Virus record (IMG/VR): IMGVR_UViG_3300029955_000018
Coordinates: 7,898-71,897 of that record
Length of the DNA stretch: 64,000 nucleotides
Source of the DNA: a virus
Direction: 5' to 3' (one strand)
A program made the position numbers and the translations under genes. Below the pieces are notes generated by a model that did no database searches, had not been told where the DNA came from, and saw only the letters and a list, made by a program, of their open reading frames with translations. Positions 4,071-9,760 of this stretch are shown piece by piece (the first letter of the stretch is position 1; each line of letters starts with the position of its first letter).

Positions 4071-5972
4071 TTACGCCCCGCAGACGCGGACGCCCATGTC
4101 GTCGCGGACGCGCTTCACGCCGCCGAGGACGTCGAGACGAGTGATTTTCTCGTTGGTGCCGATCACGTAGCCGCGCAGCAGCCGGATGCCGATACCGGCC
4201 TTGGGGCTAGAGACCCATTCGGACCATTCCATGCCGCCGGGAAGTTCCTGCTTGACGATGGCCAGCGCGATGGCATCGCGGTGGAACGCCATCCCTTGAG
4301 CGCTGGTGACGTTGGCGATGGTCGAGAATGCGGTGTAGGGTAGGCCCCACACGAAGACTTGCGCGCCATCCGCGGGCAGCGCCGTCACGGTCTGGAACGG
4401 GCTGGTAGTGTCCGCGTTGATGGGCGGGGAGATATTGCACACCCCAACGCCCCCGGCAGTGGTGGTCATGGCCGAGGTCAGCACGAAGCTGCGCAAGGGT
4501 CCGACGTTGCGGTAGCTGATGGGGTTCACCGCGTAAGAGCCGGCGAACTGCACGATGTCGCCCAGGTTGAGGCAGTTGACGATGGAGTCGTCCCAGCTCC
4601 GGGTCTGGATGGTCGCTCCGTTGTTGGTGATGCCGCCGCCGGCGATGTCCACCAATGGATTCGAGGCGATGGCTCCCGCGGTACCGAGAGCGCCCACCTG
4701 GAAGCGGGCGATGTTCACGTCCTCGTTAAACCGGAAGTTCAACGCGGTGCCCATCTTGCCCGTCAGGTACTGCTGGCTGACTTCCTTCTGGGGATTCAGC
4801 AGGTTGGCGTTGAAGCCGAGCACCGCCGCGGTCATATCCGGGGAGATGACCATGGCATTGAGGCTGACAATGCGGGGCACGCCATTGTTGGTCATCTGTA
4901 CGCCGGCCTGGGCGTAAGTGGCCACGGAATTCGGCAGGACGCCGGGGGTTCCCACAAACGTGAAGAAGCCCGAGAAGACGTCGCACAGATCGCCGTCGAT
5001 CATGTTGGCGATGGTGGCCGAGGAGGGCTCGACGTACCGCTCGCCGAAGCGATCGATAGTCATCGTCAGGTCCTGGTCCGAGTTCTGCAGGTCCTGGCCC
5101 CACAACTCGTTGATGACGATGGGGACCATTTGCTCCTGGATGCCTTCGGGTTTGATGCCATCGCCACGCCGGCCGCGGGTACGGACGGGCAAGCGGGCAT
5201 TGAAGGTGTCGCTATTGTTGCGAGCGCAATCGCGAATCGCGCCCTTCTGAATCTTTGGATTCAGGCCAGACTATTTCATCGCCCCAGTGGGGCGCTCCAC
5301 GCTTCGGGCCGCTTGGCCCTACTCCCGATCAAGGGATAGTCGTTGAGCCTTCCTGTTTCCAGGCTTGGTTGCTGATTGCCGTGGCTTTCGCTTTAGGTGT
5401 CCCAGCAGTTCATGGAGTTCTTCGAGGCAGGTTGCCCTGCCAAGGGGCTAATTTACTAACCCGATCTTTTCGTTCTTTACTGCGAATTTCTCATCGACCT
5501 ATGTGTTCAGGCCTGGATCGCTACTTCCAGGCCCCGCCCGAACTTCGCTGGGTTCAGGCTGCTGCAACTTTCATTGCAGAGCAGACTATTTCATCACCCC
5601 GGTGGGGTGTGCTGCGCTTCCGGCCGCTTGGCCGTACTCCCTTGCGGGATAGTCGTTACGCCTTTCCTGGTGTTGGCACGCCGCCCGCAACGCAGAGTGC
5701 TTCGCCAACGGCATCCATACCAGGACTTGGTTCGGCGTTTCCGTGGGCATCGCTGATAGTCGCTTACTTGGTTAATCGTGTCAACCAAAAAGATGAACCA
5801 GTTTCAGCCTTTAGGGTTTCGCCGAGTTCACAGCATTTGCAATGGCGATTACTCGCCAAGGGAGCTAGATGTTGGCTAACTCGCGAGAGACCATCTTCAT
5901 CATGGTCAGGTCGTTTTCGAGCCGGATGAGCGAATCCTGTGCAATTACCACAGGGTTTAATAGTTCGTCCAT
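4071..5972 (-). CDS. P22-type major capsid protein, spliced: join(5879..5972, 5459..5497, 4071..5209), 423 aa
   Basis: GGAGG RBS plus ATG 5972. Spliced translation MDELLNPVVIAQDSLIRLENDLTMMKMVSRE-F-DEKFAVKNEKIG-Y-TFNARLPVRTRGR... is continuous and resembles P22-coat-family N-termini. C-terminal AFHRDAIALA...RLDVLGG motif. 94+39+1139 = 1272 nt. Confidence 0.9.
5210..5458 (-). ncRNA. Group I intron 2 (249 nt, ORF-less, IA2-like)
   Basis: P1 GGGU/UAG pairs with UUAGCCC (U.G at 5' splice site); P3 CUCCAUG/CGUGGAG; P4 GCUG/CAGC; R AACGACUA (5337-5344); S GAUGAAAUAGUCUG (5267-5280); two hairpins between P7 and P3'; terminal G at 5210 restores the frame. Confidence 0.92.
5498..5878 (-). ncRNA. Group I intron 1 (381 nt, ORF-less, IA2-like)
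   Basis: P1 GAGU/UAG pairs with CUAGCUC; P3 UGCUGUG/CGCAGCA; P4 UCGGCG/CGCCGA; R AACGACUA (5650-5657); S GAUGAAAUAGUCUG (5582-5595); P8 CACCCC/GGGGUG; terminal G at 5498 restores the frame. Confidence 0.92.
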
Positions 5973-6093
5973 TGATTTCCTCCGCTGTCATCGCGACAGG
6001 GGTGCTCTGCGAACAGAGCGGGTTAGTAAGTAGTAAAGTTGGCCGCCGCGTTATCGTCGCGACAGGCGGCGGCCGGAGGGGGCAAGAACTTGG

Positions 6094-7293
6094 TCAGGCG
6101 TTCTGCATATTACGCAGCCGGCGCACGTCTTCCATGGAAAGGGCGCGCAACTCCGGCTGTGTATAGTCCTCGGGATAGCGCTTGGTGACGGCGCCCCCAC
6201 GATGACCCACGGGCTTCGGAGGTGCGGCTTTCGGCCGCGGAACTTGTGCTTGTGCGGGCGGTAATGGAGCCGCTGCTACGGGCGTCTCGCGACGGCCGTC
6301 GGTCCCCGGAGCGGGTGCGTCCGGGCCGGGAGCGGCTGGCAATGCCGAAAGAATCCGGTCGTACTCTTCCCTCGCCGCATCCTCGACCACGCGAATAGCG
6401 CGTTGCTGCGCCCGTGGGCCGAGTTGCGCGAAGTTGTCCGGTAACTGGGTTTTGGCCATGATGCGCGTTTCTTCCTCGGGGTGGGTTCCCAGCCAATAAA
6501 GCAGTTCCCCCACTTCCTCGTAATCGCGCACTACCAGGCCCATGGCGACGGTGCCGTGAGTTGTCTTGGGATCGAGAAGGCGAGTAAACACCTCCTCGGA
6601 ATCGGGATGGACCGCTTTCAGGCGTTCCCGCGATTGGGTCCAGCGCTCTTCCGCGGCTGTCCGTTCCGCTTCGGTGGCCAACCGTGCGGTTTCTTCAGCC
6701 GTTGATTTGCGCGCAGATACCTCGTTCGCTTCCCGTTCCTGCTGGGCTCTGCCCACTTGCCGCCGCTCGTCGCGGACCAGCCAGCGGGTATGCCTTGCGT
6801 TGAACGGCTCCCATTCTTCGTCGGCGTCCATCACCGGCTCGGGATCGTCGTCAACCGGAATGACCGTTGAGGCCTCCTCCGCGGGTTTCACCGGCAGCGC
6901 AGCGGGTTTTTCCGCCAGCTTCCGGTTCATCTCCGCGAGGGTGGCCTTGAGGCTATCCAGTTCGACGGCCTGCCGCTCCAGTTTGCGGGCGAAGCCGCCT
7001 TTGGCCTTCTTCGGCTCGTGCGGCGCCGGTTCCCCGCCGGCGGCGGGCGTATGCCCGGTTTCGTCCGTTCCGTCTCCAGCGGTGTCGCCAAGATCGGGAT
7101 CGGACGCGGGTGGAATCGTTTCGCCCGGCGTGCCGGCGGGCGCTACGGCTACCTCTTCGGCGGCCGGGGGGGGAGCGGCGTCGGTGGTCTCGGTCGTCTC
7201 GATCGAGCCGTACCCGCTGTCCTCCAGAATCTTTTTGATGGTCTCCGCACTTTGGGTGCGTGACTCGATATTCAATTCCGCTAAATCTGCCAT
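6094..7293 (-). CDS. Capsid scaffolding protein
   Basis: Lies between portal and coat; acidic, Pro-rich, coiled-coil; ELLYWLGTHPEE and KAAPPKPVG motifs typical of P22-like scaffolds. Start taken at ATG 7293. Confidence 0.8.
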   Translation of the reverse strand: MADLAELNIESRTQSAETIKKILEDSGYGSIETTETTDAAPPPAAEEVAVAPAGTPGETIPPASDPDLGDTAGDGTDETGHTPAAGGEPAPHEPKKAKGGFARKLERQAVELDSLKATLAEMNRKLAEKPAALPVKPAEEASTVIPVDDDPEPVMDADEEWEPFNARHTRWLVRDERRQVGRAQQEREANEVSARKSTAEETARLATEAERTAAEERWTQSRERLKAVHPDSEEVFTRLLDPKTTHGTVAMGLVVRDYEEVGELLYWLGTHPEEETRIMAKTQLPDNFAQLGPRAQQRAIRVVEDAAREEYDRILSALPAAPGPDAPAPGTDGRRETPVAAAPLPPAQAQVPRPKAAPPKPVGHRGGAVTKRYPEDYTQPELRALSMEDVRRLRNMQNA

Positions 7294-7354
7294 AAGTTGG
7301 TGGGTCTCGTTGTGCGGCCAGGTTCTCAACGTCGTCGCGACGGAAGCGGCCGGG

Positions 7355-9760
7355 TTATGCTCCAGCAAGCGGCTGCGCCTGCGCGGGCGGGGGTATCGGC
7401 GGCGTGGCGGCCTGCGCCATATCGGCTTCGTGGCCTTGTTGCTGCGCGGCCATGCCCTGTTCATGGGCCTGAGCGTTGGCCTGGGATTGCGCCTCGGCCT
7501 GCTGCTTCTGTTGGGCCGCCTGCTGCAACTGGAGATGCTCGGCTGCGTCCGCCGCCGCGGCGGCTTCGACGTCCATCCCCGCTCTCAACAAAGCCGCTCT
7601 CCGGTCGAGTTCCGCCTGGAGGGCGGCGTGATCCAAGTCGGCGAGTTTGTTCATGGACGCCGATTTCGACATGGCTTCGGCTACCAGGATTTTGGTCTGG
7701 TTACCCTGGGTGGCCACGCGCTCGGCCGACTCGTACTTCAGCCGTTGGGTTTTCAGTTCGTCGGCCATTTGGGCGAGTTGCTGCATCAGAGTCTGGATCG
7801 CCTGGCTTTGTTGCTGCAGCTTGGCCATCATCTGCTGTGTGGTGGGCTGCTGGGCGGGATCCTGATTGTCCTGGTCCTGCGCGACGTCCGGCGGTCTCCA
7901 GCGGTCTATGAATTCCTGCGGCAGGTCGAGCATCTTGGCGATCAGGTCGAGAGCGCGCGCGCCGGCCTGCGGATTATTGGCCACAAGCTGCAGCACGCCA
8001 TCGGTCTGCTGGCGGAGCAGGCTGGCGTAGGGCGTGCCATCGCCGATGGTCACGTCGTAGCGCGCCGGGTCGAAGTCCGCGCCCACGCGCCACATGCGGT
8101 TGACGCCGTTTTCGAGTTCCTGTTTATTGATGTTCACCGACCGGACCTTGCCGTCCGGGTCCATGATGGTGATGGCGCGCGCCTCGGAGTAGACGTGCGG
8201 CATCAGGTCGAGGCGGATGCGCGTGGCGTGCCGGATGGAACGCGCGTAGTTATCGGCGTAGTTGAAGTGCGCGTTATCGCCCTGGCGCTGGATGGCGTTG
8301 ATCGCCTTGCCGGACTGGTCGCCCTGCGGCTCGCCCAGGTCGGGCCCCCAGATGTTCAGGGAGTTCTTGATGTCCTGGTCGCGGTGCATCAGGGCTTGGG
8401 TGATCGCCATGATGTTGGCCTCGGTGTTCACGCGGAAAGGCGGAGGCACCATTTGGCCGCTGACATCCTCGGCGTCGTAGACCAGCACGTCGTGCGGCTT
8501 GCGGTTGGCCTCGTGCCACTCGGGATGGTTGTCTATCTGGCCCGAGGAAGCGATGAAGCTGGACATGGGGGCGAGCGCGATCGCCTGCGCTTCCTTGCTG
8601 GCCATGTAGTCGTAGGCCAGGTTGGCTTCCATGGCGGGACGCACCATGCCGCGGACGGCGACTCGGCCGTCGACCAGCACCTCGCGGCCGACAACGCAGG
8701 GGAACGGAATCCACTTCCCTTTCCACTCCGTGACCGGTCCCACGATTTCGACGCCGGTCATTTTGGCCATTTTGACCACCGGGCGCCGGATGTCGCGCCG
8801 GCCGATCTCGTAGACACTCGCCGGATAGGTGTCGGCCTGGTAATCCTTCAGCCGCACCACCTTGCCGGTAGAGAGCATGAGGACGGTTTCTTTCGGGCCG
8901 CTCTCGATCCACCAGTACTCCGCCACGCGAATCGACTTCCTGCCGGGGAACCAGTCGTCTTTCTCTTTATCCGACAGGTGAATAAAGTCCCCGGTCATCG
9001 CCGTGGACGCGTCGGGATAGTCTTCTTTGAACACCACCGGATCCAGATCCTCGGTGGCGAACAGATACCGCATGTCGGAGCGGTCGAACTCGATACAGGC
9101 CGGGTCGCAATAGATGGAGAAGGGATTCGGGATGCGCTTCGAGATCAGTTTTTGCAGGAAGCAGGTCTGCAGGGAGCCGTCGTCGGTGTTATCGGTTTCC
9201 CAGTCGAACCATTCCCTCCACCATCCGATGCCGATCTTCACCGCGTGTTCGAAGGCCGTCGAGCGCGCCGTATCCGCGCCGCAATCCTGATCGATGTTGC
9301 GGTTCATCCCCTGGAGGATTTTGGCCTCTTCTTTGCTCGCGCCCTCTCCCACGGGTGAGATGCGGCCCTCCGGAGGCGACTGCCGCATGTTGTTGACGAC
9401 CTGATCGCAGGATGGTCCGATCTTGTCGAAAGCCAGGCAGGGAAGCCCCTTGCGCTCTTCGCGCTGCTCGGTCTTCCAATGGTCCATGTTGTCGACGAAA
9501 TTCAGTTCTTCGATGGCCTTGCGGCGGAATTTCTCCTCGTACTCGCAAATGGCGCGGAAGCGGACACGCGCTTCCTGCAGGAGGTCCCGGTCCACCGCGC
9601 CGTCTTCTTCGACCTGTTTCTTCGAGCCGGCCGTAGCTTTGACTTGAGGCGAACGGATCGACTTCGACGCGTCGGTCAGCGGGATTTGGGGATCCTGCTG
9701 GCTGGGCGCCATACTGGCTTGCGGCGGAACGAGCTGCGGGCCGTTGGTGGGAGGGAACAT
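7355..9760 (-). CDS. Portal protein, P22 gp1-like (801 aa)
   Basis: PCLAFDKI, RIPNPFSIYCDP, IRVAEYW, IPFPCVVG, DQSGKAI, RYDVTIGDG motifs; Gln-rich C-terminal coiled coil. Confidence 0.9.
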   Translation of the reverse strand: MFPPTNGPQLVPPQASMAPSQQDPQIPLTDASKSIRSPQVKATAGSKKQVEEDGAVDRDLLQEARVRFRAICEYEEKFRRKAIEELNFVDNMDHWKTEQREERKGLPCLAFDKIGPSCDQVVNNMRQSPPEGRISPVGEGASKEEAKILQGMNRNIDQDCGADTARSTAFEHAVKIGIGWWREWFDWETDNTDDGSLQTCFLQKLISKRIPNPFSIYCDPACIEFDRSDMRYLFATEDLDPVVFKEDYPDASTAMTGDFIHLSDKEKDDWFPGRKSIRVAEYWWIESGPKETVLMLSTGKVVRLKDYQADTYPASVYEIGRRDIRRPVVKMAKMTGVEIVGPVTEWKGKWIPFPCVVGREVLVDGRVAVRGMVRPAMEANLAYDYMASKEAQAIALAPMSSFIASSGQIDNHPEWHEANRKPHDVLVYDAEDVSGQMVPPPFRVNTEANIMAITQALMHRDQDIKNSLNIWGPDLGEPQGDQSGKAINAIQRQGDNAHFNYADNYARSIRHATRIRLDLMPHVYSEARAITIMDPDGKVRSVNINKQELENGVNRMWRVGADFDPARYDVTIGDGTPYASLLRQQTDGVLQLVANNPQAGARALDLIAKMLDLPQEFIDRWRPPDVAQDQDNQDPAQQPTTQQMMAKLQQQSQAIQTLMQQLAQMADELKTQRLKYESAERVATQGNQTKILVAEAMSKSASMNKLADLDHAALQAELDRRAALLRAGMDVEAAAAADAAEHLQLQQAAQQKQQAEAQSQANAQAHEQGMAAQQQGHEADMAQAATPPIPPPAQAQPLAGA

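What the first reader, a model, noticed from the sequence alone, without database searches (positions are those of the whole stretch)
5210..5972. Major capsid gene split by two tandem ORF-less group I introns around a 39-nt microexon
The ORF track shows only an N-truncated coat protein. Seen on the minus strand: exon 1 (5972-5879, with RBS), intron 1 (381 nt), exon 2 (5497-5459), intron 2 (249 nt), exon 3 (5209-4071). Each intron has a P1 helix with the U.G wobble exactly at the predicted 5' site, P3/P4/P7/P8 pairings, AACGACUA and GAUGAAAUAGUCUG core elements, and a terminal G. Their cores are clearly paralogous, with covarying P3 and P8. Joining the exons gives an in-frame 423-aa P22-like coat. 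Established: phage group I introns are best known in DNA-metabolism genes (T4 td/nrdB/nrdD), and Twort orf142 has multiple introns. Inference: twin introns in the highly expressed coat gene of a GC-rich temperate phage are unusual, and capsid synthesis would require two ribozyme reactions.
Basis: partly seen in the sequence, partly recalled or inferred. Interest (0 to 1): 0.93.

Follow-up and report, generated by a model that had tools for sequence, protein, structure and literature searches.

The report
Phage capsid gene with two introns

Summary
On the minus strand, Rfam's group I model matches both gaps above its gathering score. That frame is gap-free against intron-less relatives.

A public gene call, P0124, equals residues 8-423 of the predicted product with 0 mismatches. 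Metatranscriptome contigs from three studies carry circular forms of both introns. Each circle is closed at the predicted terminal G and 1 or 4 nt inside the predicted 5' end. The one DNA run laid shows none.

The introns are ORF-less and IA-like (P7.1/P7.2 present). Their fold shows strong covariation: 43 of 50 pairs, 0 of 500 shuffles.

Ten non-redundant relatives of this capsid gene hold 18 such introns at five sites within about 155 nt. One relative has three introns and a 17-nt micro-exon, and some introns carry HNH endonuclease genes.

Capsid-gene and multi-intron phage genes are already in print (PMC3706429, PMC12880540). This scan also noted similar cases on other DNA (e1-5989124, e1-3487492). 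Verdict: a new member of a known kind, of moderate interest.

The parts
5979..5983 (-). Shine-Dalgarno-like GGAGG, 6 nt upstream of the start codon
   Evidence: read from the sequence
5879..5972 (-). Exon 1 of the major capsid (coat) gene: 94 nt, 31 codons plus 1 nt
   Evidence: Translation. It is identical to residues 1-31 of the intron-less homologue P0004. It ends in the U that forms the U.G pair of P1.
5498..5878 (-). Intron 1: group I, 381 nt, no homing-endonuclease gene, inserted in phase 1 in codon 32
   Evidence: RF00028 55.1 bits. Family core model R1 gives 110.6 bits at 5560-5662. The boundary has a U before and a G at the end. Its two internal ORFs of 54 and 64 aa have no Pfam match. 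A 377-nt circular RNA, 5498..5874, is present in RNA runs X15 and X16.
5459..5497 (-). Exon 2: 39-nt micro-exon, 13 codons' worth
   Evidence: It is colinear with intron-less L003 and L048. Its residues equal P0004 residues 32-45 and lie inside P0124.
5210..5458 (-). Intron 2: group I, 249 nt, ORF-less, inserted in phase 1 in codon 45
   Evidence: RF00028 64.4 bits. R1 gives 102.8 bits at 5245-5349. It has a terminal G. Circular RNAs are seen: 5210..5454 (245 nt) in X15 and X17, and 5210..5457 (248 nt) in X16.
4071..5209 (-). Exon 3 of the coat gene, including the stop codon
   Evidence: PF11651 P22_CoatProtein, E 1.2e-15, covering only profile positions 61-423. phrog_283 major head protein, E 9.2e-40.
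7355..9760 (-). Portal protein gene, two genes upstream (context for a P22-like head module)
   Evidence: phrog_156 portal protein, E 3.3e-105

Best explanation
The major capsid gene of this uncultured phage carries two small group I ribozyme introns without endonuclease genes, of the IA-like type with P7.1 and P7.2. The phage comes from peat or permafrost, and its host is probably an acidobacterium.

The late transcript cannot be translated past codon 35 or codon 48 while an intron is retained, because each intron brings a stop codon within four codons. Each intron pairs its internal guide with the last bases of the upstream exon (P1, with a U.G pair at the cut). It is then removed by the usual two transesterifications started by a free guanosine. 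This leaves exon 1, the 39-nt exon 2 and exon 3 joined into a 423-codon P22-type coat message. The freed introns then circularise by attack of their terminal G near their own 5' end.

What is shown: the ribozyme fold, the exact boundaries, that intron RNA is excised and circularised in nature, and that a contig with the exons joined exists.

What is inferred: that exon ligation is efficient, that it needs no protein helper, and that the introns arrived by homing. The inferred route is HNH endonucleases of the kind still carried by sister introns at the same two sites in related phages, followed by loss of the endonuclease gene.
For: 1. Model match. RF00028 matches both gaps above its gathering score, and these are the only two gathering-level hits in 64 kb and in the whole 71.9-kb record.

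2. Structure. On 11 ORF-less family members, 50 pairs (P2-P9, including P7, P7.1 and P7.2) are 93.8% paired, against 30-43% when partners are slid. 43 of 50 pairs change on both sides, and 0 of 500 shuffles reach the observed values.

3. Boundaries. The joined exons are 1272 nt and gap-free against intron-less L048 (82% nt, 90.6% aa) and L003. P0004's first 50 residues equal the predicted junction-spanning sequence. P0124, a JGI/IMG gene call seen on 2 contigs, equals residues 8-423 of the predicted product with 0 mismatches.

4. RNA. Contigs from 3 of 3 metatranscriptome runs laid (three studies) close into circles at the predicted terminal G of intron 1 (2 runs) and intron 2 (3 runs). The circles lack the first 4 nt, or in one case the first 1 nt, of the intron. 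The 1 DNA run laid has one colinear 18.7-kb contig and no such joint.

5. Need for splicing. Pfam covers profile positions 61-423 with exon 3 alone and 10-423 in the full-length homologue.

6. Mobility context. Sister introns at sites A and B in L013, L014, L016, L018 and L060 carry ORFs. Three of these ORFs were searched, and all three match phrog_2255 HNH endonuclease with E values of 8e-16 to 9e-21.
Against: - No contig with an exon-exon joint was seen in the three RNA runs laid.
- In X15, one contig runs from exon 3 for 29 nt into intron 2, so unspliced RNA or DNA is also in that library.
- P0124 could come from an intron-less DNA variant of the same phage rather than from spliced RNA.
- Self-splicing in vitro and dependence on guanosine are untested.
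- The window holds no HNH gene like those of the sister introns (best tblastn E 0.26). Homing is therefore history or happens in trans, not shown here.
Confidence: 0.93

Rival explanations
1. The two introns are real ribozymes, but splicing is used as a switch. Because both introns are in phase 1 and exon 2 is 39 nt, joining exon 1 directly to exon 3 stays in frame. This would give a coat isoform 13 residues shorter. Alternatively, slow splicing could time or limit capsid synthesis.
For: The arithmetic of the exon lengths holds. Both introns start with the same three bases after an exon ending in GU. [quoted passage not shown]
Against: No contig joins 5879 to 5209 in the three RNA runs laid (contigs drop rare forms). 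The 13 residues include positions that are invariant in 24 full-length homologues: K42, G44 and Y45. Intron-less relatives make the same protein without any such switch.
Confidence: 0.05
2. The gene is dead. On this reading the introns, or the gene, are decaying remnants in a defective element, and the exons no longer make capsid protein.
For: The record is rated only 81% complete and linear. The introns have lost any endonuclease gene.
Against: Both ribozyme cores score highest, or near highest, of all family members with the family model: 110.6 and 102.8 bits. The exons are intact, and the product is 90.6% identical to that of an intron-less relative with no gap. Circular intron RNAs show catalytic activity in nature. 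The same DNA is held by 14 DNA runs at 99-100% of sampled words.
Confidence: 0.02
3. The RNA evidence is an artefact. On this reading the 'circles' are assembly cycles caused by repeats, and P0124 comes from an intron-less DNA strain. Excision in vivo would then not be shown, although the introns could still be real.
For: All runs laid are contigs, not raw reads. One of the five circle joints has only 30 letters on its shorter side. The source of P0124 is unknown.
Against: The joints share 0 or 1 letter between their two sides, so no repeat carries them. They fall exactly on the predicted terminal G of each intron and 1-4 nt inside the 5' end. They recur in three studies and are absent from the DNA run. 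This is the known circularisation chemistry of group I introns (established knowledge, recalled).
Confidence: 0.03

Closest known systems
Group I intron in the major capsid gene of mycobacteriophage LittleE (Pope et al. 2013, PMC3706429; passages read)
   Same: It is an intron in a highly expressed phage capsid subunit gene. There is a U at the end of exon 1 and a G at the end of the intron. It was recognised by comparison with intron-less relatives. Splicing was shown there by RT-PCR and N-terminal sequencing.
   Different: LittleE has one intron of about 820 nt that carries a putative LAGLIDADG endonuclease gene on the opposite strand. Here there are two ORF-less introns of 381 and 249 nt, 39 nt apart. 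The capsid family (P22-type) and the likely host phylum also differ.
Two group I introns in the large terminase gene of Escherichia phage RudolfGeigy (Vequintavirus, MZ501102.1)
   Same: Two small ORF-less group I introns sit in one late gene of a cultured phage. The gene is annotated as a three-piece join. RF00028 scores are 95.6 and 84 bits. Its second intron's core is 72% identical to both window cores, and blastn gives 76.7% identity over 115 nt of intron 2.
   Different: The gene is different (terL). The middle exon is about 357 nt rather than 39 nt. The host is a proteobacterium.
Staphylococcus phage Twort orf142, three group I introns in one gene (Landthaler and Shub 1999; title seen in a reference list; content recalled)
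   Same: Several self-splicing group I introns lie in one phage gene. Exon skipping was reported there.
   Different: The host is Gram-positive with low GC content. I did not read the paper, so details of exon sizes are not compared.
Jug (jumbo gut) phages, about 18.5 group I introns per genome (PMC12880540; passages read)
   Same: Essential late genes (terL) are split into two or three pieces by small ORF-less group I introns. Splicing was checked with metatranscriptomes.
   Different: Those are 360-402 kb phages of Bacteroides with introns throughout the genome. Here a 72-kb phage has exactly two, both in the coat gene.
T4 td / nrdB / nrdD introns (subgroup IA2; recalled, not tested here)
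   Same: They are phage group I introns of the IA type, with extra P7.1/P7.2 hairpins between P7 and P3'.
   Different: Those sit in nucleotide-metabolism genes, and two of the three carry endonuclease genes. No sequence comparison was made here.

Membership tests
Group I catalytic intron (Rfam RF00028) | Covariance-model score at or above the curated gathering score | tested here: met
   64.4 and 55.1 bits against a gathering score of 50; full model 1-253 matched for both
Group I catalytic intron (Rfam RF00028) | P1 helix between the end of the 5' exon and an internal guide, with a U.G wobble at the cleavage site | tested here: met
   In both cmscan alignments the last exon U (5879 and 5459) is paired with a G. 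It is flanked by 3 exon pairs and 3 intron pairs.
Group I catalytic intron (Rfam RF00028) | [quoted passage not shown] | tested here: met
   G at 5498 and at 5210. Both are the closing residue of the circular RNAs.
Group I catalytic intron (Rfam RF00028) | Conserved core P3-P9 with the P3/P7 pseudoknot, kept by compensatory change | tested here: met
   50 pairs in 12 helices, 93.8% paired; 43 of 50 pairs change on both sides; 0 of 500 shuffles; slid controls 30-43%
Group I catalytic intron (Rfam RF00028) | Excision from RNA in vivo | tested here: met
   Circular intron RNAs in 3 of 3 RNA runs laid, and none in the 1 DNA run laid. These are contigs, not raw reads.
Group I catalytic intron (Rfam RF00028) | Ligated exons in RNA | tested here: inconclusive
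   No exon-exon joint in the RNA contigs. P0124 equals the ligated product exactly, but whether it comes from RNA or DNA is unknown.
Group I catalytic intron (Rfam RF00028) | Guanosine-dependent self-splicing in vitro | not testable with these tools
   This needs a bench experiment.
Subgroup IA of group I introns (criterion recalled: extra P7.1/P7.2 between P7 and P3') | Two extra hairpins between the 5' strand of P7 and the 3' strand of P3 | tested here: met
   Helices at alignment columns 249-262 and 266-281 are 100% and 98.2% paired. 3 of 4 and 5 of 5 pairs change on both sides. Assignment to IA1, IA2 or IA3 was not tested.
Mobile (homing) group I intron | Intron-encoded homing endonuclease | tested here: not met
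   The window introns have no such gene: the internal ORFs have no Pfam match, and the window has no homologue of the sister introns' HNH (best E 0.26). Sister introns at the same sites do carry HNH genes (phrog_2255).
P22-type coat protein (Pfam PF11651) | HMM score above the curated cut-off over the whole profile | tested here: met
   Exon 3 alone scores 57.7 bits (cut-off 24) on profile 61-423. The 90.6%-identical full-length homologue P0004 scores 77.6 bits on profile 10-423. The joined window protein itself was not sent to Pfam.

The most novel reading that the evidence does not exclude
The phase-symmetric 39-nt micro-exon is sometimes skipped: the guide of intron 1 would be used with the 3' site of intron 2. 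The phage would then make a second, in-frame coat isoform lacking 13 residues of the N-terminal arm. Two-step splicing would thus act as a tunable gate on capsid assembly rather than as a neutral burden. The crowd of five insertion sites in this short stretch would reflect selection on that gate as well as selfish spread.
Probability: 0.05. Interest if true: 0.7.

Novelty: new member of a known kind. Interest (0 to 1): 0.4.

Why it matters
This is a clean, fully bounded example of ribozyme-dependent expression of the most abundant virion protein. It comes from a phage lineage from peat that is probably acidobacterial. My searches turned up no paper on introns in such phages.

Two points go beyond a routine annotation fix:
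- Public metatranscriptomes already hold the excised intron circles. Ribozyme activity of an uncultured soil phage can therefore be read directly from environmental RNA.
- The first 250 nt of this capsid gene family is a hot spot. Across ten phages it has five insertion sites, up to three introns per gene, micro-exons of 39 and 17 nt, and site-specific HNH lineages. This makes a compact natural system for studying how group I introns gain, share and lose sites.

In practice, more than half of the close homologues in protein databases are N-terminally short gene calls (53 of 97). Many of these are probably the same annotation error.

Tried and rejected
I could therefore not fetch the contigs of P0004, P0012, P0017 or, later, P0124. 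As the tool advised, I went on with the search for related loci and the listing of cluster members.
- The contig of P0004 came back as L048.
- The contigs of P0124 did not come back. One search returned only the 84%-identical L003 contig, so whether P0124 is spliced RNA or an intron-less DNA strain stays open.

Searches that found nothing:
- Pfam found nothing in the sister introns' ORFs. PHROGs then named them HNH endonucleases.
- Pfam found nothing in the two small ORFs inside intron 1.
- A scan of one genome per prokaryote species found a single locus.
- In L106 (MW202674), a P22 coat gene annotated as two CDS, neither Rfam nor my model R1 found an intron. That split is unexplained.

Model building:
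- I built a 103-position core model instead.

Core tree:
- The core tree rests on 103 columns, and many of its nodes have support below 0.8.
- I use it only to say that the two window cores are not each other's closest relatives.
- I reject any claim about which site was invaded first.

RNA laying:
- No exon-exon joint contig was seen.
- Exon 1 and the upstream leader have no contig cover in X15 and X16. Intron 1 has none in X17.
- One X17 contig ends at 5209 followed by two letters that fit the end of exon 2 and then Illumina adapter. Two letters are too few to count.
- Contig depths were not used to rank intron against exon.

Rejected reading: I considered a nested twintron and rejected it. 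The two introns are side by side, each with its own P1 and its own terminal G.

Supplements of the papers were closed. Tables S8-S12 of PMC12880540 may list capsid-gene introns that I could not see.
Full report
WHAT IS THERE

The window is bases 7898-71897 of a linear 71,897-bp IMG/VR virus record that CheckV rates 81% complete. Its GC content is about 0.60-0.65. Public peat and permafrost runs hold this stretch.

On the minus strand the gene order is:
- a portal gene at 7355-9760 (phrog_156, E 3.3e-105);
- an unassigned 456-codon ORF at 6094-7464;
- the coat gene.

The only long ORF for the coat is 5192-4071. It matches Pfam PF11651 (P22 coat protein) from profile position 61 onward only, and it matches phrog_283 major head protein. 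The N-terminal sixth of the protein is therefore missing from that ORF.

THE INTRONS

- Rfam's group I model gives exactly two gathering-level matches in the window, both on the minus strand and both over the full model: 5468-5247 (64.4 bits) and 5888-5562 (55.1 bits). They are also the only two in the whole record.
- Both introns end in G.
- Each has a GNRA-capped P2, the P7 strands, and two extra hairpins between P7 and P3' (P7.1/P7.2). From memory, these hairpins are the mark of subgroup IA, the type of the classical phage introns.
- Neither intron holds an endonuclease gene. The two small ORFs inside intron 1 have no Pfam match.
- The window has no homologue of the HNH genes found in sister introns (best E 0.26).

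THE BOUNDARIES

- Joining 5972-5879, 5497-5459 and 5209-4071 gives 1272 nt and 423 codons with one terminal stop.
- The joined frame aligns without a gap to the intron-less gene of L048 (82% nt, 90.6% aa) and to L003.
- The first 50 residues of P0004, the product of L048, are identical to what the joints predict.
- For joint 1, an enumeration of all donor/acceptor pairs within 24 nt left two tied best solutions.
- The 90% cluster of the window's own ORF has 10 members. One of them, P0124 (416 aa, JGI/IMG, on 2 contigs, the longest 4446 nt), is letter for letter residues 8-423 of the predicted spliced protein.
- P0124 comes either from an assembled spliced message or from an intron-less strain of the same phage. 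I could not fetch its DNA to tell which.

RNA EVIDENCE

I laid the contigs of three metatranscriptome runs from three studies, and of one DNA run, on 4071-6100.
- The DNA run has one 18.7-kb contig colinear with the whole stretch.
- The RNA runs have small contigs that close on themselves:
  - 5498..5874 (377 nt) in X15 and X16;
  - 5210..5454 (245 nt) in X15 and X17;
  - 5210..5457 (248 nt) in X16.
- On the coding strand these circles join the predicted terminal G of intron 1 or intron 2 to the fifth (or, once, the second) nucleotide of the same intron.
- This is the product expected when a freed group I intron attacks its own 5' end with its terminal G. That chemistry is established and recalled here.
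- The two sides of each joint share 0 or 1 letter, so no repeat explains them.
- The result fixes both 3' splice sites independently and shows that the ribozymes are active in nature.
- No contig with joined exons was seen. One X15 contig crosses the intron 2/exon 3 boundary unspliced. Ligation is therefore supported only by P0124 and by inference.

THE FAMILY

The capsid protein has 328 homologues at E <= 0.001. Of the 120 listed clusters, 56 are 385 aa or shorter. In the close clade the figure is 53 of 97.

Among the IMG/VR loci:
- Of the 20 with at least 48% identity (L003-L022), 9 are interrupted near the 5' end and 11 are continuous.
- Of the 24 more distant loci, none is interrupted.

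Metagenome contigs added L060, and otherwise mostly the same sequences again.

Splice-site enumeration and motif searches, together with a 103-position core model built from 11 introns (R1), give 18 introns in 10 non-redundant genes. The exact ends of L021's first intron (cut by the contig end) and of both L060 introns were not determined.

| Gene | Introns | Sites |
|---|---|---|
| window | 2 | A, B |
| L013 | 3 | A, B, D |
| L014 | 2 | A, D |
| L015 | 1 | B2 |
| L016 | 2 | A, B |
| L018 | 1 | B |
| L020 (= L019 = L047 = L059, 100% identical) | 1 | B |
| L021 | at least 2 | A, D |
| L022 | 2 | B, C |
| L060 | 2 | A, B2 |

The sites, in P0004 codons:

| Site | Codon | Genes with an intron there |
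|---|---|---|
| A | 32 | 6 |
| B | 45 | 6 |
| B2 | 47 | 2 |
| D | 51 | 3 |
| C | about 83 | 1 |

- L013 has micro-exons of 39 and 17 nt.
- R1 found every one of these cores, including 7 it was not trained on.
- R1 found none in the 13 intron-less loci or in the 22 loci. It found exactly two in the window.
- On the 11 ORF-less introns the shared fold is strongly supported: 93.8% of cells are paired against 30-43% for slid partners; 43 of 50 pairs change on both sides; 0 of 500 shuffles reach the observed values.
- The long versions at site A (L014, L060) and site B (L013, L016, L018) carry ORFs.
- The three ORFs searched match phrog_2255 HNH endonuclease.
- The site-A ORF (L014) is about 32% identical to the two site-B ORFs, which are 54% identical to each other.
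- The insertion sites lie in the best-conserved stretch of the protein, where K42, G44, Y45, N48, R50 and R54 are invariant. Homing endonucleases usually target such stretches (established knowledge).

HOW IT MOST LIKELY WORKS AND AROSE

The late transcript must lose both introns before a ribosome can read past codons 35 and 48. Each retained intron brings a stop within four codons.

I infer that endonuclease-bearing ancestors homed into sites A and B. They then lost their endonuclease genes, leaving the short ribozymes that are tolerated because they splice.

The two window cores are 78% identical. Each is 82-83% identical to L060's second intron and 72-75% identical to introns in cultured Ralstonia and Escherichia phages. 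They are therefore family members rather than a recent tandem duplication.

HOST AND LIFESTYLE

- A relative's capsid locus, 100% identical to L020, lies on a 311-kb contig of a Bryobacteraceae MAG.
- One homologue is named by its source as from an Acidobacteria MAG.
- The likely host phylum is therefore Acidobacteriota.
- That the window's own phage is temperate was not tested.

COMPARISON WITH WHAT IS KNOWN

- A spliced group I intron in a phage capsid gene is published for mycobacteriophage LittleE. That paper also cites one in lactococcal phage Tuc2009 (PMC3706429, passages read).
- Escherichia phage RudolfGeigy has a terL annotated as a three-piece join with two RF00028 matches. Its intron resembles intron 2 here.
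- Ralstonia phage BOESR1 has a split DNA polymerase gene with an RF00028 match.
- Jug phages average 18.5 group I introns per genome, and there splicing was checked by metatranscriptome reads (PMC12880540, passages read).
- Earlier notes of this scan describe capsid genes with two to eight introns and micro-exons on other DNA. I did not test those notes.
- My paper searches (listings and abstracts read) showed nothing on introns in acidobacterial or peat phages, and nothing on intron circles read from environmental RNA. This is not proof of absence.

VERDICT

The case is a new member of a known kind. Its added value is the environmental RNA evidence and the five-site hot spot. Interest is 0.4.

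Noticed in passing
L013:1531-3060 (IMG/VR contig, related phage): The same capsid gene carries three group I introns of 281, 761 (with an HNH ORF) and 281 nt. This leaves micro-exons of 39 nt (1903-1941) and only 17 nt (2703-2719).
   Followed up: yes
L106:1495-3010 (MW202674.1, Caudoviricetes sp., Manatee Spring): A distant P22-type coat gene (34% identity) is annotated as two 'P22 coat protein' CDS with a 120-nt 'hypothetical' CDS between them. Neither Rfam (E <= 0.01) nor my family model finds a group I core there, so the split is unexplained.
   Followed up: partly
L107:407-2541 (Escherichia phage RudolfGeigy) and L108:7-2243 (Ralstonia phage BOESR1): Cultured phages carry close relatives of these intron cores. 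RudolfGeigy has two in terL, already annotated as a 3-piece join. BOESR1 has one between two CDS both annotated as DNA polymerase, which are not annotated as joined.
   Followed up: partly
window 6094-7464 (-): A 456-codon ORF between portal and coat, in the position of a scaffolding gene, has no PHROG match. As listed, it overlaps the end of the portal ORF by 110 nt, so its true start is probably further downstream.
   Followed up: no
window 5210-5458 (-), RNA runs X15, X16, X17: Intron 2 circularises at two different sites in different samples: after nucleotide 4 in X15 and X17, and after nucleotide 1 in X16. Intron 1 shows only the site after nucleotide 4.
   Followed up: no
window 5498-5878 (-) and L019:1380-1769: Intron 1 (site A) and the 390-nt site-B intron of L019/L020 both have long insertions at the same places in P5 and P6. 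The other nine aligned introns lack them. The 5' 45 nt of intron 1 resembles the site-A intron of L014 (87%), while its core resembles site-B/B2 introns. This hints at recombination between introns.
   Followed up: partly
protein clusters: 53 of the 97 closest homologue clusters are N-terminally short gene calls (385 aa or less). Many probably reflect unrecognised introns in the same 5' hot spot.
   Followed up: partly
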